Shown: positions 5,469 through 61,247 of the stretch, piece by piece
How the letters are laid out: the number at the start of each line of letters is the position of its first letter
How positions within the stretch are numbered: the stretch's first letter is position 1
Source of the DNA: Phycisphaerales bacterium
GTDB lineage: Bacteria > Planctomycetota > Phycisphaerae > SM23-33 > FEN-1343
DNA: 64,000 nt
Assembly (NCBI GenBank): GCA_003171335.1
Contig: PMYD01000089.1
Coordinates: 34,958 to 98,957 of the forward strand
Direction of reading: 5' to 3'
The notes under the pieces: generated by a model
Databases searched by the model: none
Seen by the model: the letters and a program-made list of their open reading frames with translations, nothing else
What the model was told of the DNA's origin: nothing
Program-made: the position numbers and the translations under genes

Positions 5469-8400
5469 ATGTTCCGATCCGTGACCCTCATGAGCTTGTC
5501 GATGCTGCTGATTGCCCTTACGAACGCCCCGCCGATGGCCGGCGCGGCTATTGTGCTGAATGAGGACTTCGACAGCGGCGGCTTGAACGTGCCCCTGTGC
5601 ATAATCAATACGAGCAACCCCTCCCGGCCCGCCATCACCCTGGCCGGCCGGTATAACTGGCCTGAAGACCCCAGCCAGTGGGCGTGGATGATGTTCTCCA
5701 TGACCGGGGCAAATGCCACCACGCCCCAATTCACCGTGTTGGCAAGCAATATCGGCGGCGGGGTTTATTACCCAGCGAGCTGGACACGCTATGTCTACAG
5801 CTATGACCAGCAGAATTGGTTCTTCTTCGACAACGGCTCGCTGAATTCCGGGTCGCTCATTTACAGCTTCAGCAACAATTCCGCGTTCAATCAGAACACC
5901 GTGTATGTCGCCCTGGGCATTCCTTATCCCTGCTGGCGGACCGCGGCGTTCGTGGCCTCCATCAAGAGCAATCCCTACGTGAAACCCACCGCCAGCGCCG
6001 ATGCGAATTGCATTGTCGGGAACACCCCTGGCACCTACGGGCACGACGCCAACGGCAATCTGTATTACGATGACATGGGCCGAGTGGTCCCGTCCATGCC
6101 CGTTTTCGGCTTCATGATCAACGACGCCAACGCCACCGGCCCCAAGACCCGCGTGGTGATGCAGAGCGGCAACCACGGCGCTGAGCACTGGGCGCATTAT
6201 GCCCTGGAGGGTATGGTCCAGGCGCTGCTGTCGAACGATCCGAACATGGTCGCCCTGCGGCAGAAGGCGATCTTCTTCATCTATCCGGACGTCAATCCGG
6301 AAGGCAATTACTGCGGCTACTGGCGCTCGACGCCCGTCAACCCGGGTAACCTTCCTGGTCTTACCGCGGACCACAACCGGCTCTGGGCCGACCCCAACGG
6401 CCTGGCCGTCGGCTTTGGCGGTCCCACCAGGAATCCGGAAATTGCCATCGTCGAGAACGCCCAGCGCGCTGATGCTGGAAGCGCCGAATACTTCCTCGAT
6501 GTGCATGGCACCTGGGATCCCACTTCAGGTCCGGATTATCTGAATCTCACCTCCTACAATTCCGCCTTGGCGAACAACCTTCGTCTGATTGATCCGGGCG
6601 ATATCGGAGCGGAAACTTACTGGGGCGATCTGCGGTTTGCGATGGGGTACGCCTCGGCGCCGGTTTCTACCGGCGGCCTGGCCGCGGTCACCAGCCTCAC
6701 GCCCGAGATCGGCATGAAGGCCGGAGAGACCGCCGACTATAACCGGCAACTGGGCAAGTACTATATGATGGCCCTGTACGCCACGCTGAACGCCCCGGGT
6801 AACAATTTTCCCCCGACCGTCAGCGCCGGCGCCAACCAGACCATCCACCTGCCGACAAACACGGCAAGCTTGGCCGGCACCGTCAGCGATGATGGCCTGC
6901 CGACCGGCTCGGCCGTCACCGTTACCTGGAGCAAGGTCAGCGGCCCGGGCACGGTCACCTTCGCCAACGCCAGCGCCGCGGCCACCCGGGCGACCTTCTC
7001 GACCTCGGGCACCTACATCCTCCGCCTGACCGCCACGGACACGGCTTTGCCGACCTTCGCGCAAATGCAAGTCACGGTAGCCTCGGGCAATGCACCCCCT
7101 GTAGTCAACGCGGGAGCCAACCAGAGCATTACGCTGCCCATCAACACCGTCAACCTGGTCGGTACGGTCAGCGATGACGGTCTGCCCACCGGGGCGGCCG
7201 TGACGACCACCTGGAGCCGCCTGGGCGGCCCGGGCAGCGTCACCTTCGCCAACCCCAGCGCCTTGAGCACCACAGCCACGTTCTCAACGGCGGGCACCTA
7301 TGTATTGCAACTAGCGGCCAGCGACACGGCGTTGACTGGCACCAGCAACCTGCAGGTTACGGTTATCCCCGCGAATCAGGCTCCCGTAGTTAATGCCGGT
7401 GCGAATCAGGCCATCACGCTGCCGGTTAACACCGTCGCGCTGGCCGGTACGGTCAGCGATGATGGTCTGCCCACCGGGGCGGCTGTGACGACCACATGGA
7501 GCCGCCTCAGCGGTCCGGGCAACGTGACCTTCGCCAACACCAGCGCCTTGAGCACCGCGGCCACGTTCTCAACGGCGGGCACGTACCTGCTGCAACTGGC
7601 GGCCAGCGACACGGCTCTGACTGGCACGAGCAATATTCAGGTTACGGTTGCCCCCGGCGTTAATCAGGCTCCGGTAGTCAGCGCCGGTGCTAACCAGGGC
7701 ATCACGCTGCCGATCAACACCGTTGCGCTGACCGGTACGGTCAGCGATGACGGCCTGCCCTTCGGGGCGGCCGTGACGACCACATGGAGCCGCCTGGGCG
7801 GCCCGGGCAGCGTCACCTTCACCAACGCCAGCGCCTTGAGCACCACAGCCACGTTCTCAACGGCGGGCACGTACATGCTGCAACTGGCGGCCAGCGACAC
7901 GGCTCTGACTGGCACGAGCAACATGCAGGTTACGGTTGCCCCCCCGGGTAATCAGGCTCCCGTGGTCAGTGCCGGTGCGAATCAGACCATCACGCTGCCG
8001 GCCAACACCGTCGCGCTGGCCGGTACGGTCAGCGATGACGGACTGCCCACGCCTCCCGGCGCCGTCACGCTGGCCTGGACCCTGCAAAGCGGGCCCGGAA
8101 CGGTCAGCTTCGCCAATGCGGCCGCCGCCGCCACGACGGCCACGTTTTCGACGGCCGGTACGTACGTGCTGCGCCTGACGGCCAGCGACACGGCGTTGAC
8201 ATCGTATGGCCAGTGCACAGTCGTGGTGCAGCCGCCAGCGTCGCCGTCGCACGCAGAACGCATCCTGATTGATGTCGGTGACCCAACGACCGGCAGTGGC
8301 ACGGGTTGGAACAATTTCACCGTACATCCTCACTGGTCTGGCACTCCGGGCGTGGACCAGGATGGTTACGATGTGTACCTGCAAGAGCTTGCTCCTGGCG

Positions 8401-18972: not shown

Positions 18973-20260
18973 TGGCTCCGGACGCTGCCGCGTAGCCAGT
19001 CTTGAGATTCCTTGCTTATTCCTGCATTCATAAGCAGTTAAGCACCAATCTCGGGTGCCAAAACAGGCCAAAACAGGCCAAAACAGCAATTAACCTTCTT
19101 TAGCACTTATGCTTATGCGCAAGTCCTTATCACACAAAGGCCCATGCAAAAGTGCATAATGCTTAAGATGCATATGCCCCTTTTTGTGCAGCTTGTGCAA
19201 TTTCGCAAACTGCCCCATGCCGACCTCGCATCGTCGCTATTCACTTGTCAAGCCACACGCAGCCCTCAGCGGCCGCCAGCGTCGCGATTAACGCGCCAAC
19301 AAGTATTAAGGGGCAAATTGCGTGCCAGACTGTGAACATTCCAAGACGAATTTTTGCACATTTCACAACCGATGTTCATTACAAGCGTTATGAGATCAAA
19401 ATAACAGAACTAACTTTGCAACTCGCGACTTTGGCCGGCCGTGGCCTGCCAAAATGTGCGCATTTCGTTATCTTGGCGACCCGCACCTGCCATTCTTGGC
19501 ATGCGTTGGGTGCCGTGGCTGCGTTTTTCTGCAGCCACGCGTCAGTGCAAGTTGCTCCCCTTCTCGCGCATCAACGCGGCTCCGCAAGTTCTTCCTGATG
19601 ACGCGTGGCTGCGAAGAGAAGCAGCCACGGCACCCGGCTCGATTAGAGCAGTTAAGCCTTGCATATTTACGTCCGGCTTAAAGAAGGTTATGGAAACGAC
19701 CGAGAATCGCTGGAGCCACGAATTTCCAGGGGTATCCCCTGACCGGCAAGTTCTTTAGCCTCCGCAGGAGGCGTTTGATAGTAGCACGACAGCGCTAGTT
19801 TGATCGTAAGTCCTTATTTCTCCGTCGGACCGTTCGGAGTCGTTGTGCGAGTTTCCTAAGGTTCTTGAACATCGAAAGTGAAACTAGCGCTGTCGTGGTA
19901 GGCCCGGCGCGCTGCCCCCAAGCGAGCGCCAGCGAGCGTGGGGGCGAGCCCGGGGGACAGGGCCCTCCCAGAAAAAGAGCCCCGTCAGGGGCGATTGAAC
20001 GGTGCAACCGGGGACACTGCTGCGGCCGCATCGCTCAATCGCCCTGGCGGGCTCCCAGAAGAGGGGGTCCTTCCTTTCCCCAGGCTCGCCCTTCGACTCG
20101 CTTCGCTCGCTCAGGGCAGCGCCAGGGGCTACTGGTCAGACGCCCTGGCGGGCTCAAGAACCGGAGGAAACTCAGGCCGCCCGCTCCGGCTCGGTCGGCG
20201 CCGAAGCCTTCTTAAGCCGGATGTAAACATGCAAAGCTAAACTGCTATAGCCTAGCCTTC
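18973..20260. other. About 1.3-kb lower-GC structured noncoding region with hairpins and short repeats (candidate ncRNA(s) or decayed element)
   Basis: No credible ORF. 3x tandem GCCAAAACAG (19060-19090). Two near-identical hairpins CGTGGCTGCG-loop-GCAGCCACG (19511-19540, 19603-19632). Long-range inverted motifs TAACCTTCTTTA (19093) / TAAAGAAGGTTA (19679). ACGACAGCGCTAGTT inverted pair (19783/19877). GC-rich nested stem 19915-20115 enclosing a GGGCGATTGA...TCAATCGCCC hairpin. Confidence 0.3.
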
Positions 20261-20782: not shown

Positions 20783-20789
20783 GGAAGAA

Positions 20790-20836
20790 TTTCAAATAGC
20801 CAATTTCCAATTGCAAATTAGCAATTGGCAATGGGT
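20790..20836. repeat. Short AT-rich palindromic element (CCAATT/CAATTG units)
   Basis: CCAATTTCCAATTGCAAATTAGCAATTGGCAATGG between the hisS stop and the downstream gene start. Same periodic style as the elements at 22683, 24848, 29328, 61210. Confidence 0.5.
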
Positions 20837-22682: not shown

Positions 22683-22853
22683 AAATCCCAAATCCAAAAT
22701 TCCAAATCCCAAACAAATCCCAAGCACCAAATTCCAAACGGGGATGTGCCTGGGGCACTCCTCGACGCGCTGGGCAGATGCTCCGGCGCGGAGTTTGGAA
22801 TTTGGAATTTGGTGCTTGTTTGGGATTTGGAATTTGGGATTTCCCCGCCGCCT
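22683..22853. repeat. Composite palindromic intergenic element: ~55-bp AT-rich arms built from CCAAAT(T)/GGATTTG heptads around a GC-rich palindromic core
   Basis: Left arm ATCCCAAATCCAAAATTCCAAATCCCAAACAAATCCCAAGCACCAAATTCCAAAC. The right arm is its near reverse complement (GTTTGGAATTTGGAATTTGGTGCTTGTTTGGGATTTGGAATTTGGGATTTCC). The core contains GTGCCTGGGGCAC. It sits in the divergent promoter gap between ykgJ-like and cimA. Confidence 0.8.
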
Positions 22854-24847: not shown

Positions 24848-24951
24848 TGGTCAATTGGTCAATTAGTCAATTGGTCAATTCGGGGGGGGGAAGCGCCTGC
24901 CTCTCTACTAATTGACGAATTGACTTGTTGACTAATTGACCGATTGACGAC
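24848..24951. repeat. Palindromic intergenic element of GTCAATT octamer units, ending 2 nt before the valS ATG
   Basis: Left arm GGTCAATTGGTCAATTAGTCAATTGGTCAATT, spacer GGGGGGGGAAGCGCCTGCCTCTCTAC, right arm TAATTGACGAATTGACTTGTTGACTAATTGACCGATTGACGAC. Confidence 0.75.
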
Positions 24952-24952
24952 T

Positions 24953-27900
24953 ATGCCAACACAACTGGACCCTGTCTACGACCCCAAACGTTTCGAGGCC
25001 GCCGCCTACCAGCTCTGGGAGCAGGCAAAGAGTTTCCATGCCGAGCCAGGCGATGGCGAGAAGTACTCGATTGTCATCCCCCCGCCCAACGTAACGGCCC
25101 CGCTGCACCTGGGCCACGCCCTCAACAACACGCTGCAGGATATCCTCATCCGCTGGCAGCGGATGACCGGCAAGGCGACGCTGTGGATGCCCGGCACCGA
25201 CCACGCCGGCATCGCCACGCAGACGGTCGTCGAGAAGCGCATCCTCGCCGAAGAGGGCAGGCGGCGGACCGATTTCGCCCGCGAGGAGTTCGTCGGCCGC
25301 GTGCAGGCGTGGAAGGATGAGTACGAGGCCCGCATCGTGGGGCAACTCAAAGCGATGGGCTGCTCATGCGACTGGGACCGCAGACGTTTCACCATGGACG
25401 AGATGTGTACCCGCGCCGTCCGCGCGGCGTTCTACCAGCTTTTCGCCGATGGGCTGATCTACCGCGGCAAGCGCCTGGTCAACTGGGACCCGGCGACGCA
25501 AACCGTGCTGGCCGATGATGAGGTCGAGCACGAGACGATCAAGGGCTTCTTCTGGTATCTGCGCTATCCGCTGGTCGAGGGTGCGGAGATCGACGGCAAA
25601 CGCGTCGAATGGGTCACCGTCGCCACGACGCGGCCCGAGACCATGCTCGGCGACACGGCCGTGGCGATCAACCCGCGCGACCCGCGCGCCAAAACCCTGG
25701 TGGGTAGGCAGGTGCGCCTGCCCATCGTGGGGCGAATCATCCCCATCATCGCCGATGACTACGTCGTCATGAGCGACCCCACCAGCGAGGATGCCAAGGC
25801 TCGCTTCGCCACCGGCTTTCTCAAGGTGACCCCCGCCCACGACCCCAACGACTGGGAGATCGGCCGGCGGCACAACCTGCCCGTGATCAACGTCATGGCC
25901 CCCGATGGCAGCATCTCGGACAAGCATGGCTGGACCGACGCCACGGAACCGGAGGCCCAAAATCTCCTGGGCATGGATCGTTTCGAGGCCCGCGAGGCCA
26001 TCGTCGAGTACTTCCGCGAGGAGGGCCTGCTCGAAGAGGTGCGCGATTACGAACACGAGGTCGGCCACAGCTACCGCAGCCACGTGCCCATCGAGCCGTA
26101 CCTGTCAGACCAGTGGTATATCGCGGTGAAGAAGCCGCTTGCCCTGAGCGAGCGCAGCGAGTCGAAGGGGATTGTAAATTGTAAATTGCAAATTGCAAAT
26201 TGGGAACGGGAACATGCGGAGTTGGTTGAAAAACAGGGCGACCTGACGGTGCTGAAAGGCACCGACGTGCCGGTTAATTCGCTGGCTGGCATGGCGCTGA
26301 TGCCGCTGCTGGATGGGCGGCTGAAGTTCGTGCCCGACCGCTACGCCAATACCTACCGCGCCTGGCTGGAGAATCTGCGCGATTGGCCCATCAGCCGACA
26401 GCTCTGGTGGGGACATCGAATTCCCGTCTGGAGCATAGAGTTCTCGCAGGCCCATCATGGCAAAGAAGCCGATGGCAAGCGTCCAGAGCATGTGGCCAAC
26501 GAGATGCGTGACTTTTTCGCCAAGCGCAGCGTCACCACGCAAGTTGAACTGCGATGGCCGCCTGTTCTAGTGGAAGGGAAATGGTTTTTCCATGTCAGCG
26601 CGATGACGCCTCGTGCCAGTCGCCTGCTTGAGTTGCTCGGAAAGGTGCTGAAGCATCACCCGCCCGACAAGAGTGAACTCATGCATGAGATGTGGGATGA
26701 GAATAGGGAACTCCGGGAGGAATTTGGCGAGGAATCCCTTGCAGGGGTGACCAAACTGCGCGAGTGTCTAAATGGTTGCCAACAGGACCCCGACGTCCTC
26801 GACACGTGGTTCTCCTCCGGCCTGTGGCCCATCTCCACGATGGGCTGGCCGGAAGAAACGCCGCTGCTGAAGGCGTTCTATCCCACCAGCGTGCTGTGCA
26901 CGGCCCGCGAGATCATCACGCTGTGGGTCAGCCGCATGGTGATGTTCGGGCAGTATTTCCGGGGCGACATTCCGTTTGCCGATGTGTACATCCACGCCAT
27001 GATCCAGGATGGCGAGGGTCGAAAGATGTCCAAGAGCCTGGGCAACGGAATCGACCCCCTGGACATCATCGACAGCCACGGCGCCGACGCCCTGCGGTAC
27101 ACGCTGGCCGCCATGACCACCGAGACGCAGGATGTGCGCATGCCCGTCGAGCACATCAAGCTGCCCGATGGGCGGGAGATGAACAGTTCGCCGAAATTCG
27201 ACATCGGCCGCAACTTCTGCAACAAGCTGTGGAACGCCTCGCGCTTCGCCATGATGAACCTGGAGGCCCTGCCGGCCTTCGGCGACATCGACTGGCGGGG
27301 CAACCTGGCCGACCGCTGGATCCTCAGCCGCCTGCACTCGACCATTCGCGATACGACGGCGGCCCTGGCGGCGTATCGCTTCAATGACCTGGCCTCGACG
27401 CTCTACCGCTTCATGTGGGATGACCTGTGCGACTGGTACCTGGAGATCGCCAAGGGCCGCATCAACGCGGGCGAGACTGCGCCCAAGGCCATCCTCGCCT
27501 ACGTGCTGGATGGCCTGCTGCGGCTGCTGCACCCGATCGCCCCGTTCATCACCGAATCCATCTGGCAGCACCTCAACGAGGTGGCGCCTTCGCGCGGCCC
27601 GGCCGGCAGCGCTGCCGAAAAACTGCTCATCACGGCGGCCTGGCCGACGGCCAATGCCGACTGGATCGATGCGGCGGTCGAAACCCAGTTCGGCCTGCTC
27701 CAGGATCTCATTCGCTCCATTCGCCAGGTCCGCACGACGCACAACGTACCGCCGGCGCGGGAGCTTTCCGTGCTGGTTCGCGCCAGCGGCGAGCCGGCCG
27801 CACTGGTCGGGGCAAACGCCGGGCTTATCCGGTCGCAGGCCCGGCTGGCGGAACTGACGGTTCGCGCCGACGCCCAGCGCCCCGACTCCAAGGCGGCCAC

Positions 27901-28141
27901 GGTGGTCGCCGCCGGCCTGGCCGCCTTCGTGGCCGACGTGGTGGATGTCCCCGCCGAGCGGGCCCGCCTGTCCAAGGAACGCCAAACGGTGGCCAAGGGC
28001 ATCGCCGGCGCCGAGGGCAAGCTCAACAACGAGAAATTCCTGGCTAAGGCCCCGCCGGAGGTTGTGGCCTCGGAGAAACAGCGACTTTCAGAAATGAAGG
28101 CGCGGCTGGAACAGATCGAGAAGGCGCTGGGCGAACTGTAA
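24953..28141 (+). CDS. valS: Valine--tRNA ligase with two lineage-specific in-frame insertions
   Basis: HLGH motif (PLHLGHALNNTLQD), a KMSKS-region (GRKMSKSLGN) and a C-terminal coiled coil identify ValRS. Relative to canonical ValRS there are extra segments at about 26150-26290 and 26460-26790. Confidence 0.9.
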   Translation: MPTQLDPVYDPKRFEAAAYQLWEQAKSFHAEPGDGEKYSIVIPPPNVTAPLHLGHALNNTLQDILIRWQRMTGKATLWMPGTDHAGIATQTVVEKRILAEEGRRRTDFAREEFVGRVQAWKDEYEARIVGQLKAMGCSCDWDRRRFTMDEMCTRAVRAAFYQLFADGLIYRGKRLVNWDPATQTVLADDEVEHETIKGFFWYLRYPLVEGAEIDGKRVEWVTVATTRPETMLGDTAVAINPRDPRAKTLVGRQVRLPIVGRIIPIIADDYVVMSDPTSEDAKARFATGFLKVTPAHDPNDWEIGRRHNLPVINVMAPDGSISDKHGWTDATEPEAQNLLGMDRFEAREAIVEYFREEGLLEEVRDYEHEVGHSYRSHVPIEPYLSDQWYIAVKKPLALSERSESKGIVNCKLQIANWEREHAELVEKQGDLTVLKGTDVPVNSLAGMALMPLLDGRLKFVPDRYANTYRAWLENLRDWPISRQLWWGHRIPVWSIEFSQAHHGKEADGKRPEHVANEMRDFFAKRSVTTQVELRWPPVLVEGKWFFHVSAMTPRASRLLELLGKVLKHHPPDKSELMHEMWDENRELREEFGEESLAGVTKLRECLNGCQQDPDVLDTWFSSGLWPISTMGWPEETPLLKAFYPTSVLCTAREIITLWVSRMVMFGQYFRGDIPFADVYIHAMIQDGEGRKMSKSLGNGIDPLDIIDSHGADALRYTLAAMTTETQDVRMPVEHIKLPDGREMNSSPKFDIGRNFCNKLWNASRFAMMNLEALPAFGDIDWRGNLADRWILSRLHSTIRDTTAALAAYRFNDLASTLYRFMWDDLCDWYLEIAKGRINAGETAPKAILAYVLDGLLRLLHPIAPFITESIWQHLNEVAPSRGPAGSAAEKLLITAAWPTANADWIDAAVETQFGLLQDLIRSIRQVRTTHNVPPARELSVLVRASGEPAALVGANAGLIRSQARLAELTVRADAQRPDSKAATVVAAGLAAFVADVVDVPAERARLSKERQTVAKGIAGAEGKLNNEKFLAKAPPEVVASEKQRLSEMKARLEQIEKALGEL

Positions 28142-28261
28142 AGATTGCCAATTTGCCATTCCCGAAAAAAAGTGCCCCATCCGGTGAGTCCCGGACGGGG
28201 CGTCCCTCCCTCCGTCGCCAAGGAAGGATCCTCAGCGCGGGGTCTTACAACTGGGAAAGGA

Positions 28262-29327: not shown

Positions 29328-29487
29328 GGCCAAAAATCCCAAATCCCAAATCCCAAACAAATCCCAAGCTCCAAATCCCAAAGGGGAACAAGAGGCCCGC
29401 TGGACAGCAGCGCGAGTTCCCGTACGGGGTTTGGAGCTTGGGATTTGGAGCTTGTTTGGGATTTGGAACTTGGAATTTGGGATTTGC
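29328..29487. repeat. Composite palindromic intergenic element of the same family as 22683-22853
   Basis: AATCCCAAATCCCAAATCCCAAACAAATCCCAAGCTCCAAATCCCAAAGGGG ... GC-rich core ... GGGTTTGGAGCTTGGGATTTGGAGCTTGTTTGGGATTTGGAACTTGGAATTTGGGATTTG. The shared core is CCCAAACAAATCCCAAGC. Confidence 0.8.
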
Positions 29488-61209: not shown

Positions 61210-61247
61210 CAAATTCCAAATTCCAAGATTTGGAATTTGGAATTTCT
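61210..61247. repeat. Compact palindrome of AAATTCC/GGAATTT units in a divergent promoter gap
   Basis: CAAATTCCAAATTCCAAGATTTGGAATTTGGAATTTC. Same motif style as the 22683 and 29328 elements. Confidence 0.6.

What the first reader, a model, noticed from the sequence alone, without database searches (positions are those of the whole stretch)
26150..26800. valS carries an in-frame copy of the AAATTG-type repeat and a second, low-GC ~100-aa insertion
The first insertion lies between the conserved YLSDQWY block and the FVPDRY...ISRQLWWGHRIP block. There the ValRS has about 45 extra residues, including GIVNCKLQIANWERE, encoded by AAATTGTAAATTGCAAATTGCAAATTGGGAACGGGAAC. This is the same periodic motif as the intergenic palindromic elements, which suggests in-frame domestication of a mobile repeat inside an essential gene. 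The second insertion lies between HRIPVW and DPDVLDTWFSS. About 100 extra residues (…HVANEMRDFFAKRSVTTQVELRWPPVLVEGKWFFHVSAMTPRASRLLELLGKVLKHHPPDKSELMHEMWDENRELREEFGEESLAGVTKLRECLNGCQQ) are encoded by a stretch of visibly lower GC (26500-26760).
Basis: partly seen in the sequence, partly recalled or inferred. Interest (0 to 1): 0.65.

Follow-up and report, generated by a model that had tools for sequence, protein, structure and literature searches.

The report
Mosaic valS with in-frame repeats
An essential planctomycete gene (valyl-tRNA synthetase) carries translated copies of the genome's short repeat DNA in one surface loop and, in a second surface module, a roughly 120-residue segment that has been replaced outright relative to its closest known relative, a pattern that recurs across the phylum.

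Summary
valS (24953-28141, +) is an intact class-Ia ValRS of a Phycisphaerae-like planctomycete with two expanded segments.

Insertion 1 lies at the entry to subdomain CP2 and is composite. It holds a 33-nt copy of a widespread dispersed short repeat, which has a second copy at 20089-20120 and is absent from the closest relative. It also holds an in-frame (ATTGYAA)x4.6 heptanucleotide array, which that relative shares. About 45% of 162 related ValRS carry arrays or REP-like palindromes at this same codon position, with different units and copy numbers. The rest have a repeat-free 23-26 aa loop. This is best read as tolerated repeat DNA in a permissive loop. Domestication is not shown.

Insertion 2 is not an insertion event here. 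It is the CP3 subdomain in a roughly 120-aa, ValRS-only form shared by 42 of 186 relatives. Against the closest relative the flanks are 88-92% identical in protein, with 4-fold-site divergence of 0.32-0.37. The cassette is saturated: 21% aa identity, third-position divergence 0.73, no DNA alignment. A second pair with 98% identical cores shows the same thing. Cassette replacement, or local hypermutation, therefore recurs.

The low GC3 of this cassette is phylum-wide (mean -0.23 over 81 loci).

The parts
24953..28141 (+). valS, valyl-tRNA synthetase, 1062 aa counted from the ATG (the ORF list starts 9 nt earlier at a TTG)
   Evidence: Pfam tRNA-synt_1 3.7e-122, Anticodon_1 3.3e-41, Val_tRNA-synt_C 3.7e-16. 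1GAX E = 1.3e-177. The HLGH and KMSKS motifs and the editing-domain motifs are present in the translation. The ATG start is conserved in L081.
26138..26170 (+). 33-nt in-frame copy of a dispersed short repeat, coding LALSERSESKG (aa 396-406). It is absent from the closest relative.
   Evidence: It forms a 33-nt gap in L081 in the DNA alignment. A second copy lies at 20089-20118 (-), 29 of 30 nt identical, E = 1.7e-9, with 0 expected by chance. The core is present in at least 120 metagenome contigs. AF2 pLDDT is 53 over aa 401-410.
26171..26202 (+). In-frame heptanucleotide tandem array (ATTGYAA)x4.6, coding IVNCKLQIANW (aa 407-417)
   Evidence: TRF score 50, 96% matches. The motif count is 3 against 0.06 expected. 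The same array is at the same site in L081. No stable fold.
26202..26213 (+). Direct hexamer duplication GGGAAC GGGAAC (codes W-ERE). L081 has GGGTAAACCAGC here.
   Evidence: Read directly from the sequence and the alignment.
26213..26272 (+). Conserved extension HAELVEKQGDLTVLKGTDVP, which follows the array in all 'expanded' relatives
   Evidence: The motif H-x-[DE]-L-V-E-x-x-[DG]...[YV]-L-K-G-T-D-V-P is shared by expanded relatives. AF2 predicts a beta-hairpin at aa 425-434 with pLDDT about 95.
26432..26785 (+). Insertion 2: the CP3 subdomain as a 118-aa alpha/beta cassette (aa 494-611) with low GC3. It is replaced relative to the closest relative.
   Evidence: It is homologous over its full length to the same segment of P0013, P0093, P0113 and others, at E down to 1.6e-13. 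Against L081 it shows 21% aa identity, p3 of 0.73 and no DNA alignment, while the flanks are 88-92% identical. GC3 is 0.62 against 0.87 in the flanks. The AF2 model of the module alone has pLDDT 79 and a b-a-b-b-a-a-a order.
20089..20120 (-). Second copy of the 33-nt repeat, in an apparently non-coding, repeat-rich stretch
20788..20832 (.). Intergenic degenerate heptamer array with the same unit (AATTGCA) as the valS array. It folds into a modest hairpin.
   Evidence: TRF. Fold z-scores are -2.7 and -3.4.
24848..24950 (.). Palindromic octamer-array element (TGGTCAAT)x4 ... (ATTGACNA)x5 immediately upstream of valS
   Evidence: TRF. Hairpin energy is -57.4 kcal/mol, z = -8.2. The orthologous element in L081 has the unit TGGTTAAT / ATTAACCA in both arms.

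Best explanation
The gene is a functional class-Ia ValRS of a Phycisphaerae-like planctomycete. Its two 'insertions' sit at two permissive points of the connective polypeptide: the entry to the CP2 helix pair, and CP3.

(1) Insertion 1 is repeat DNA that is translated because it lies in a solvent-exposed loop and keeps the reading frame.
- The (ATTGYAA)x4.6 heptamer array is inherited. It is shared with the closest relative.
- It belongs to a genome-specific family of 7/8-nt periodic arrays. These are normally intergenic palindromes.
- Such arrays change copy number by slippage, and inside a gene only steps of three units (21 nt) survive.
- A further 33-nt copy of an unrelated, widespread dispersed repeat was added 5' of the array after the split from that relative.
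- The peptide is most likely a tolerated passenger, not a domesticated module.

(2) Insertion 2 is the CP3 subdomain in a roughly 120-aa ValRS-specific form. This is an old family whose typical members have four conserved Cys. The window's copy keeps one.
- It behaves as a cassette. Within one cassette type it evolves roughly with the core, but types are distributed mosaically.
- Between this gene and its closest relative the cassette has been replaced, most likely by homologous recombination. The crossovers would lie in the invariant flanking motifs WWGH(R/Q)IPVW and D-x-DVLDTWFSS.
- The systematically low GC3 reflects a different evolutionary regime of this segment: weak constraint and little recombination-driven GC enrichment. 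It is not a foreign low-GC donor.

Shown: the anatomy; sharing or absence in relatives; saturation of the cassette; phylum-wide recurrence.
Inferred: the slippage and insertion mechanism; recombination as the means of replacement; neutrality.
For: Intact ValRS.

Position. By the IleRS domain scheme, CP2 is the antiparallel helix pair after the CP core. CP3 links CP2 to the second Rossmann half and has a different fold in different enzymes (PMC7191050). In the AF2 model the helix pair is at aa 444-453 and 463-473, just after insertion 1, and insertion 2 lies between the WWGHRIPVW strand and DPDVLDTWFSS.

Insertion 1:
- L081 (84% nt identity, syntenic) has (ATTGCAA)x4.6 at the same codons and lacks the 33-nt piece.
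- Of the fetched loci, 13 have TRF-detectable period-7 arrays at this site, with about 10 different units.
- Of 162 ValRS, 87 have the repeat-free loop PIEHLAEKFGEGL and about 75 are expanded, mostly with array-type peptides and some with REP-like palindromes.
- L080 and P0052 differ by one 21-nt block, ISNPESQ x4 against x3.
- The same unit occurs in a valS array and an intergenic array of the same genome in the window and in L040. The same unit occurs at two sites of one valS in L054, where a whole palindrome is in frame.
- The upstream intergenic array shows a concerted, compensatory unit change between the window and L081.
- The 33-nt piece has a second copy in the window and at least 120 metagenome copies.
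- pLDDT is low over the 33-nt-coded peptide.

Insertion 2:
- It is homologous over its full length to 14 or more ValRS cassettes and falls in a 42-member cluster among 186 unique cassettes.
- A profile search of 1.84 billion representatives found only another ValRS fragment. There is no Pfam hit.
- Window against L081: core aa identity 0.88-0.92 and 4-fold divergence 0.32-0.37. In the cassette aa identity is 0.21, p12 is 0.59, p3 is 0.73, and the local DNA score is 20 against 18.5 +/- 2.5 for shuffles.
- The same step occurs in L083/L084, with 98% core identity.
- P0001's cassette matches P0097's by eye, an estimated 50% identity that was not computed.
- Same-type cassettes track core identity.
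- The GC3 deficit averages -0.23 over 81 loci and is never clearly positive.
Against: - No transposase, terminal repeats or target-site duplication were found for the arrays, so mobility is inferred only from shared units.
- All units at this site resemble RATYNNN next to the native CCGATTGAG. In-situ origin by slippage therefore remains possible.
- No donor of the window's cassette was found. Its best match is only 30% identical, and the word-index search with the cassette alone returned nothing, not even the identical fragment P0004.
- Synonymous divergence is not raised in the 40 codons flanking the cassette, so no recombination tract is visible. A local hypermutation or rapid indel-turnover process is not excluded.
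- Even within one cassette type some pairs diverge far faster than the core: 95% core against 37% cassette for P0093/P0112.
- The uniform GC3 deficit is not predicted by simple horizontal exchange.
- Function, expression and zinc binding are untested.
- AF2 confidence in the cassette is only moderate, and only the PDB Foldseek library could be searched.
Confidence: 0.6

Rival explanations
1. Domestication. The repeat-derived peptide of insertion 1 has been co-opted as a functional element of ValRS, for example as a tRNA or partner contact, and is maintained by selection.
For: The array is better conserved between the window and L081 than the gene average: about 30 of 33 nt against 84%. Expanded relatives share a frame-specific pattern I-x-[ND]...I-[AS]-[ND]-W followed by a conserved H-x-[DE]-LVE-x-KDG hairpin. 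AF2 gives a short helix at aa 414-420 with pLDDT about 84.
Against: Units, peptides and copy numbers differ widely between lineages. At the same site some lineages carry unrelated REP-like palindromes. 87 of 162 relatives have no insert, and states switch at least 24 times on a core tree. The newest piece is predicted to be disordered.
Confidence: 0.12
2. In-situ microsatellite. The heptamer array arose once by slippage of the native codons CCG-ATT-GAG at this spot and has persisted and homogenised ever since. It was never a mobile insertion. This is compatible with the 'passenger' part of the best explanation but not with the link to a dispersed family.
For: Repeat-free relatives read CCGATTGAGCAT here. 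Many units are GATTGNC or AATTGCA, that is RATTGNN. L077 keeps IEHL and then starts its array. Copy number changes in 21-nt steps (L080 against P0052).
Against: The same unit occurs in intergenic arrays of the same genome (window 20788-20824; L040 downstream of valS) and at two separate sites of one valS (L054). Units such as AGAAGCA or AATCTCA are not derivable from CGATTGA without full turnover. Unrelated REP-like palindromes use the same site.
Confidence: 0.25
3. Insertion 2 diverged in place through a locally raised mutation or indel-turnover rate, or through positive selection, rather than by cassette replacement.
For: There is no raised synonymous divergence in the flanks. No donor was found. 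Within-type pairs have very fast cassette divergence. The uniform AT shift of GC3 is what mutation-dominated sequence would show. The window's copy has lost 3 of the 4 family Cys.
Against: Third positions and 4-fold sites are saturated (0.73 and 0.82) while neutral sites next door are at 0.32-0.37, so relaxed constraint or positive selection alone cannot do it. Lengths and types differ discretely. P0001's cassette is clearly of the P0097 type and the window's is of the P0013/P0093 type. No template repeat for a retroelement-type mutator is present in the 64 kb.
Confidence: 0.25
4. Insertion 2 is a recent acquisition of foreign, low-GC DNA specific to this genome.
For: GC3 is 0.62 against 0.87, and the boundaries are sharp.
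Against: The same GC3 deficit is seen in valS of 81 loci of all genomic GC contents. The segment is a member of a ValRS-only family at the homologous position.
Confidence: 0.05
5. Assembly artefact or misassembly of repeat-containing reads.
For: The source is a metagenomic assembly, and repeats are error-prone.
Against: The ORF is intact and all catalytic motifs are present. The same array is in an independent ENA assembly with conserved synteny. An identical JGI contig exists. Analogous arrays occur in long-read chromosome-level MAGs of relatives (titles).
Confidence: 0.02

Closest known systems
Rickettsia palindromic elements (RPEs) inserted in frame in protein-coding genes (Ogata et al. 2000, 2002, as summarised in PMC10969869)
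   Same: Dispersed repeat DNA is found inside unrelated, often essential genes. It keeps the reading frame, adds a peptide at a position compatible with the fold, and is absent from orthologues of relatives.
   Different: RPEs are roughly 100-150 bp elements with a conserved family sequence and a conserved encoded peptide. Here the inserts are short periodic 7/8-nt arrays whose unit differs from genome to genome, plus a 33-nt unrelated repeat. The valS copy has one arm only, and the same codon position is hit or retained in many lineages.
Cyanobacterial STRR heptanucleotide tandem repeats (recalled from memory: Mazel et al. 1990; two literature searches found no usable paper)
   Same: These are tandem heptamers present in many copies per genome, with lineage-specific units.
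   Different: As far as I recall, STRRs are described as intergenic, not as palindromic two-arm arrays and not as translated parts of a housekeeping enzyme. No sequence relationship was tested.
CP3 subdomain variability of class-Ia synthetases (IleRS: PMC7191050)
   Same: It occupies the same topological position, between the CP2 helix pair and the second half of the Rossmann fold. CP3 is known to have different folds and an optional zinc motif in different enzymes. Thermus ValRS has a Cys-rich knuckle here.
   Different: The known differences are between distant taxa. Here unrelated CP3 cassettes of 49-148 aa occur in proteins whose remaining sequence is 90-98% identical.
Low-complexity, AT-rich species-specific inserts in Plasmodium housekeeping proteins (from memory, not tested)
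   Same: These are slippage-prone, compositionally deviant, rapidly changing inserts in surface loops of conserved enzymes, including tRNA synthetases.
   Different: Those are eukaryotic, homopolymer-like and genome-wide. Here the repeat has a 7-nt unit, which reads all three frames, and the genome is GC-rich.
REP elements with RAYT (PF01797) transposases
   Same: These are short palindromic dispersed repeats. Some relatives carry REP-like palindromes at the same valS site, and even a PF01797 domain in frame inside valS.
   Different: No PF01797 gene is present in the window, and the arrays lack the REP consensus organisation. Any link to RAYT is untested.

Membership tests
Valyl-tRNA synthetase (class Ia) | Rossmann catalytic domain with HIGH and KMSKS motifs | tested here: met
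   HLGH at aa about 52-55 and KMSKS at aa about 691-695 are in the translation. PF00133 scores 3.7e-122. Both motifs are invariant columns in the 109-sequence alignment.
Valyl-tRNA synthetase (class Ia) | CP1 editing domain, anticodon-binding domain and C-terminal coiled-coil arm | tested here: met
   PF13603 6.6e-7, PF08264 3.3e-41, PF10458 3.7e-16. The alignment to 1GAX runs end to end apart from the two insertions.
In-frame dispersed palindromic repeat (RPE-like) | The inserted sequence has other copies elsewhere in the genome | tested here: met
   The 33-nt piece has a second copy at 20089-20118 and at least 120 metagenome contigs. The heptamer unit is shared with the array at 20788-20824. 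Only 64 kb of this genome could be examined.
In-frame dispersed palindromic repeat (RPE-like) | The insert is absent from orthologues of close relatives | tested here: inconclusive
   This is met for the 33-nt piece, which is absent in L081. It is not met for the array, which L081 shares. The array is absent from the next-closest relatives P0002-P0011.
In-frame dispersed palindromic repeat (RPE-like) | Palindromic or hairpin potential of the inserted copy | tested here: not met
   Fold z-scores are +0.52 (136 nt) and -0.52 (56 nt), and no inverted arm is present. The intergenic relatives do form hairpins (z = -8.2).
In-frame dispersed palindromic repeat (RPE-like) | The insert lies in a surface loop compatible with the fold | tested here: inconclusive
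   AF2 pLDDT is 53 for aa 401-410, and the adjacent core is confidently folded.
Coding microsatellite (slippage array) | Head-to-tail copies of a short unit, with copy-number differences between close relatives that preserve the frame | tested here: met
   TRF reports 4.6 copies at 96% matches. L080 and P0052 differ by exactly 21 nt, which is 3 units. No copy-number variant of the window's own array was available.
MITE / REP-RAYT element | Terminal inverted repeats, a target-site duplication, and a cognate transposase | tested here: not met
   No TIR or TSD is visible at the junctions. No PF01797 homologue is present in the window. The rest of the genome was not available.
Intein | Hint domain, N-terminal Cys/Ser, C-terminal His-Asn followed by Cys/Ser/Thr | tested here: not met
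   There is no Hint or intein Pfam hit. Insertion 2 ends in ...GCQQ followed by D.
Diversity-generating retroelement target | A variable repeat with a nearby template repeat and reverse transcriptase, and variants of equal length that differ at adenines | tested here: not met
   There is no second copy of the cassette DNA in the 64 kb. Variant cassettes differ in length (49-148 aa) and cannot be aligned.
CP3 zinc-knuckle subdomain of class-Ia synthetases | Position between the WWGH-IP-W strand and the D-x-DVLDTWFSS motif | tested here: met
   The domain scheme comes from PMC7191050.
CP3 zinc-knuckle subdomain of class-Ia synthetases | Four Cys ligands | tested here: not met
   The cassette family has four conserved Cys positions (EC..CG..YVC..SC). 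The window keeps only the last one. Metal binding cannot be tested here.

The most novel reading that the evidence does not exclude
Planctomycete valS is a previously unrecognised kind of mosaic housekeeping gene. At least four permissive sites repeatedly accept the genome's own periodic 7/8-nt repeat arrays in frame, and in some lineages REP palindromes or a whole HUH-Y1 transposase domain. The CP3 subdomain exists as a set of ancient, mutually non-alignable cassettes. These are exchanged between close relatives, or maintained as a trans-species polymorphism, under diversifying selection. One candidate driver is a ValRS-targeting toxin, phage factor or natural-product inhibitor.
Probability: 0.3. 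Interest if true: 0.8.

Novelty: new variant of a known kind. Interest (0 to 1): 0.62.

Why it matters
In-frame 'selfish' repeats in essential genes are textbook only for Rickettsia. Here a free-living, GC-rich phylum shows the same outcome with a different kind of repeat: periodic heptamer or octamer arrays whose unit evolves in concert. The inserts land at the same few loops of one enzyme again and again. This maps the structurally permissive sites of ValRS and gives a natural experiment on how non-coding repeat DNA becomes protein sequence.

The CP3 result goes further. A cytoplasmic housekeeping enzyme carries a cassette that is saturated in divergence between proteins that are otherwise 90-98% identical. 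Such a pattern is normally associated with surface antigens or specificity subunits. If selection drives it, it points to an unknown antagonist or partner of ValRS.

Practical consequences:
- valS is used as a phylogenetic marker, and these segments would mislead alignments and trees.
- The segments can break or chimerise metagenomic assemblies.

Tried and rejected
- A word-index protein search with the cassette alone found nothing, not even the identical fragment P0004, so it is uninformative.
- A profile HMM of the cassette family against 1.84 billion representatives found only one more ValRS fragment and one spurious hit. The module has no life outside ValRS.
- Pfam on three cassettes returned nothing.
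- A tblastn search for silent cassette copies in the window, using all 190+ cassettes, gave only noise.
- A search for a template repeat or second DNA copy of the cassette found none.
- A test for a recombination tract, seen as raised synonymous divergence in the 40 codons flanking the cassette, found none in either pair.
- Rfam found only a tRNA in the window and nothing for the 25-nt repeat core.
- The 33-nt repeat is not generally coupled to heptamer arrays: 1 of 126 copies (L124) has an adjacent array.
- No PF01797 transposase is present in the window.
- Literature searches for heptanucleotide repeats in Planctomycetes, STRR, and hypervariable or mosaic aaRS insertions found nothing relevant.
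- Intein, DGR and frameshift-pair explanations were rejected. The frameshift-pair idea fails because the DNA itself is non-alignable.
Full report
**What is there.** The window carries one long ORF, 24944-28141 on the + strand. Pfam finds the class-I catalytic domain (3.7e-122), the anticodon-binding domain and the ValRS C-terminal arm. The best solved relative is Thermus thermophilus ValRS, 1GAX (E = 1.3e-177). The ATG at 24953 is the probable start, because the closest relative begins with the same MPTQLDPVYDPK. Residue numbers below count from that ATG. HLGH, KMSKS and the editing-domain motifs are intact.

The 1GAX alignment breaks exactly at the two places described. Query 400-447 has no counterpart. 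Query 504-612 stands in for about 23 residues of the Thermus enzyme, which begin with a Cys-rich 'WYCEDCQAV'. TRF finds (ATTGCAA)x4.6 at 26171-26202 with 96% matches. The motif is far above chance: 3 hits against 0.06 expected. G+C drops to 0.52-0.57 over both insertions. GC3 is 0.62 in both against 0.87-0.88 in the flanks.

**Whose gene.** The 120 best homologues and the 80 genomic loci are all from Planctomycetota MAGs: Phycisphaerae, Sedimentisphaerales, Anaerohalosphaeraceae and 'Pirellulales' bins. The closest is P0001, with 79% identity over the whole protein. Its contig L081 is syntenic (cimA-like gene, valS, a hypothetical gene, leuA) and 84-85% identical in valS DNA. A JGI contig (L082) is 100% identical over 2503 nt.

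**Where the insertions sit.** In the homologous IleRS the order is CP core, CP1 (editing), CP core, CP2 (a pair of antiparallel helices), CP3, then the second half of the Rossmann fold. CP3 has a different fold in each solved IleRS, with a zinc motif only in Thermus (PMC7191050).

The AlphaFold model has mean pLDDT 86 and pTM 0.83. It places the helix pair at aa 444-453 and 463-473. Insertion 1 (aa 396-420 plus a hairpin at 425-434) therefore lies at the entry to CP2. Insertion 2 (aa 494-611) is CP3 itself.

**Insertion 1, anatomy.** The DNA alignment with L081 shows three layers.
- L081 has the same array at the same codons: CCGATTGCAAATTGCAAATTGCAAATTGCAGATTGGG. The array is therefore inherited, not recent.
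- The window has 33 extra nt immediately 5' of it (26138-26170, LALSERSESKG). This piece has a second copy at 20089-20118 on the minus strand, 29 of 30 nt identical, E = 1.7e-9, none expected by chance. The consensus is gtcatCCTGAGCGAGCGnAGCGAGTCGAAGGgcCt. No Rfam family matches it.
- A GGGAAC hexamer is duplicated 3' of the array.

AF2 gives pLDDT 53 for the 33-nt-coded peptide, about 84 for a short helix over IANWERE, and about 95 for the following hairpin. The RNA of the region has no unusual structure (z = +0.5 and -0.5). The intergenic element just upstream of valS, by contrast, is a very stable two-arm hairpin (-57 kcal/mol, z = -8.2).

**Insertion 1, comparative picture.** Among 162 related ValRS, 87 have a repeat-free loop of 23 or 26 aa, typically IAVKKPIEHLAEKFGEGLIEGTDVPV. 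About 75 are expanded to 27-64 aa.

Where DNA is available, the expansions are 7-nt tandem arrays that start at the same codons. 13 loci are TRF-positive. Units include CGAATCG, ATTTCAA, GATTGTC, AGAAGCA, AATCTCA, ATTGACG and ATTGCAA. Read in frame, three units give a 7-aa repeat, such as KLQIANC here and ISNPESQ in L080. L080 and P0052 differ by exactly one 21-nt block. That is the behaviour expected of a slippage-prone array in which only frame-preserving steps survive.

Other lineages carry translated REP-like palindromes at this very site: TGVSPVQ..GETPVLQ and HGLPAHE..GKMPMPQ. On a neighbour-joining tree of the masked core, the expanded/basal state changes at least 24 times against 51 for shuffled labels. 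The state is therefore neither clade-bound nor random.

**Link to the intergenic elements.** The window contains two-arm arrays with other units: AAATCCC/GGGATTT twice, TGGTCAAT/ATTGACNA, and CAAATTC/GAATTTG. It also contains a degenerate array at 20788-20832 with the same unit as valS.
- In L040 the valS array unit GATTGCG recurs six times directly downstream of the gene.
- In L054 the unit GAGGCACG occurs at two separate sites of valS, and a complete two-arm element is translated at a third site.
- The element upstream of valS has the unit TGGTCAAT/ATTGAC in the window and TGGTTAAT/ATTAAC in L081. The change is in every copy of both arms, so it is concerted and compensatory.

I conclude that the valS array belongs to a genome-specific, concertedly evolving family of periodic arrays. 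An in-situ origin from the native CCGATTGAG cannot be excluded, because many units are RATTGNN. Nothing shows function: sequence, length and presence all vary freely. 'Tolerated passenger in a permissive loop' is therefore better supported than 'domesticated'.

**Insertion 2 is an old family.** The 118-aa segment aligns over its whole length with the equivalent segment of P0013 (E = 1.6e-13), P0093, P0113, P0078, P0112, P0120, P0117, P0016, P0092 and others, at 20-30% identity.

Single-linkage clustering of 186 unique segments gives 24 clusters. The window's falls in a 42-member cluster of 109-148 aa. The family has four conserved Cys positions, and the window keeps one.

A profile search of 1.84 billion representative proteins found only another ValRS fragment. 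Pfam finds nothing. A model of the module alone has pLDDT 79, pTM 0.73 and the order b-a-b-b-a-a-a. It has no significant PDB neighbour.

**Insertion 2 behaves as a replaceable cassette.**
- Between the window and L081, blastn aligns 24947-26431 and 26783-28154 at 84-85% and nothing in between.
- BLASTP of the two segments aligns only HRIPVW.
- Outside the cassette, aa identity is 0.88-0.92 and divergence at 4-fold sites is 0.32-0.37. Inside it, aa identity is 0.21, first-plus-second-position divergence is 0.59, third-position divergence is 0.73 and 4-fold divergence is 0.82.
- The best local DNA alignment scores 20, against 18.5 +/- 2.5 for shuffles.

Neutral decay since the split could give at most the flanking 4-fold value. 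Vertical descent with relaxed or positive selection is therefore excluded. Either the cassette was replaced or it mutates far faster than its surroundings. P0001's cassette is clearly of the P0097 type, while the window's is of the P0013/P0093 type.

The step is sharp in 25-codon windows. It recurs in an independent pair: L083/L084 have 98% identical cores and 89-90% nt identity, with cassettes of 93 and 79 aa that cannot be aligned. Among pairs with at least 90% core identity, most have cassette identity below 40%. When two proteins carry the same cassette type, cassette identity roughly tracks core identity.

I found no donor, no silent copies in the window, no template repeat, and no raised synonymous divergence in the flanks. 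I favour recombination with crossovers in the invariant motif-coding DNA, or a long-lived cassette polymorphism. Local hypermutation or indel turnover stays a live rival.

**Low GC.** The GC3 deficit of the cassette is not peculiar to this genome. Over 81 loci, from GC3 0.43 to 0.96, the cassette is lower than its flanks by 0.23 on average and never clearly higher. That argues against a single foreign low-GC donor. It points instead to a distinct regime: weak constraint, and possibly little recombination-associated GC enrichment because divergent cassettes cannot pair. This last step is inference.

**Comparison with what is known.**
- The closest precedent for insertion 1 is the in-frame Rickettsia palindromic elements (PMC10969869). 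The outcome is the same, but the repeat is of a different type, and the site is reused across a phylum.
- Cyanobacterial STRR heptamers (from memory) resemble the arrays but are not known to me as translated inserts.
- CP3 is known to differ in fold between distant IleRS. Non-alignable CP3 cassettes in 90-98% identical proteins were not found in the literature searched.

I rate the whole as a new variant of a known kind.

**Verdict.** The gene is a real, intact valS with translated repeat DNA at the CP2 entry and a swapped, ancient CP3 cassette. Interest is 0.62.

Noticed in passing
Relatives P0026, P0030 (= L050 3001-6900), P0044, P0051, P0086, P0090, P0098, P0105, P0115, P0116 at query aa about 216-221; P0061 at aa about 908: A complete PF01797 (IS200/RAYT-like HUH-Y1 transposase) domain lies in frame inside ValRS, in the editing-domain hairpin or the C-terminal part. 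The HVH and YY motifs are intact. The domain is flanked by REP-like peptides (GTGVSPV.., HGRDARAT..). The ORFs are continuous at 1223-1338 aa.
   Followed up: partly
window 24848-24950 against L081 2639-2812: The orthologous two-arm octamer arrays upstream of valS differ by one base of the unit in every copy of both arms: TGGTCAAT/ATTGAC against TGGTTAAT/ATTAAC. This is concerted and compensatory evolution of a hairpin (z = -8.2).
   Followed up: partly
window 22683-22842 and 29334-29486 (also 61210-61245): There are two copies of an AAATCCC/GGGATTT two-arm heptamer element that share an internal signature (caaatcccaaacaaatcccaagc). A third small element has CAAATTC/GAATTTG. All are intergenic. 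L081 has counterparts with altered units.
   Followed up: partly
L046 3634-3667; L054 3672-3707, 4398-4429, 5620-5654; L066 5390-5424; L042 4267-4290: In-frame 7- or 8-nt arrays occur at other valS sites in relatives: the editing-domain hairpin, the CP2 entry, and an anticodon-domain loop. In L054 the same unit GAGGCACG is at two sites, and both arms of a palindrome are translated at a third.
   Followed up: partly
window 20089-20120 (-) and metagenome loci L085-L164: A very widespread short repeat has the core CCTGAGCGAGCGnAGCGAGTCGAAGG, often preceded by GTCAT and followed by ACCTGCGGTTG. It was found in at least 120 soil, peat and sediment contigs, sometimes 2-3 per contig. No Rfam family matches it. 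In L124 it is followed directly by a (TAGGCAG)n array.
   Followed up: partly
window 19760-20260: This apparently non-coding stretch is rich in short repeats; for example gagcccgccagggcg occurs twice. Its nature is unknown.
   Followed up: no
window aa about 205-222 of ValRS (nt about 25565-25620), and L083/L084: A third hypervariable patch lies in the editing-domain hairpin: YPL-VDGGKVETLTV against YPLAHEVVAHGMRFEAITV in proteins that are 98% identical. It is the same site that hosts arrays or the PF01797 domain in other lineages. The window itself has nothing unusual there.
   Followed up: partly
window 28141-28165: A remnant heptamer array (gattgccaatttgccatt) lies directly after the valS stop codon. 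L081 has a full two-arm (ATTTCAA)/(GAAATTT) element at the same place (6034-6148).
   Followed up: no
window 6819-8050: A 285-nt tandem repeat, 4.3 copies at 81% matches, is presumably a repeated protein domain. It was not examined.
   Followed up: no
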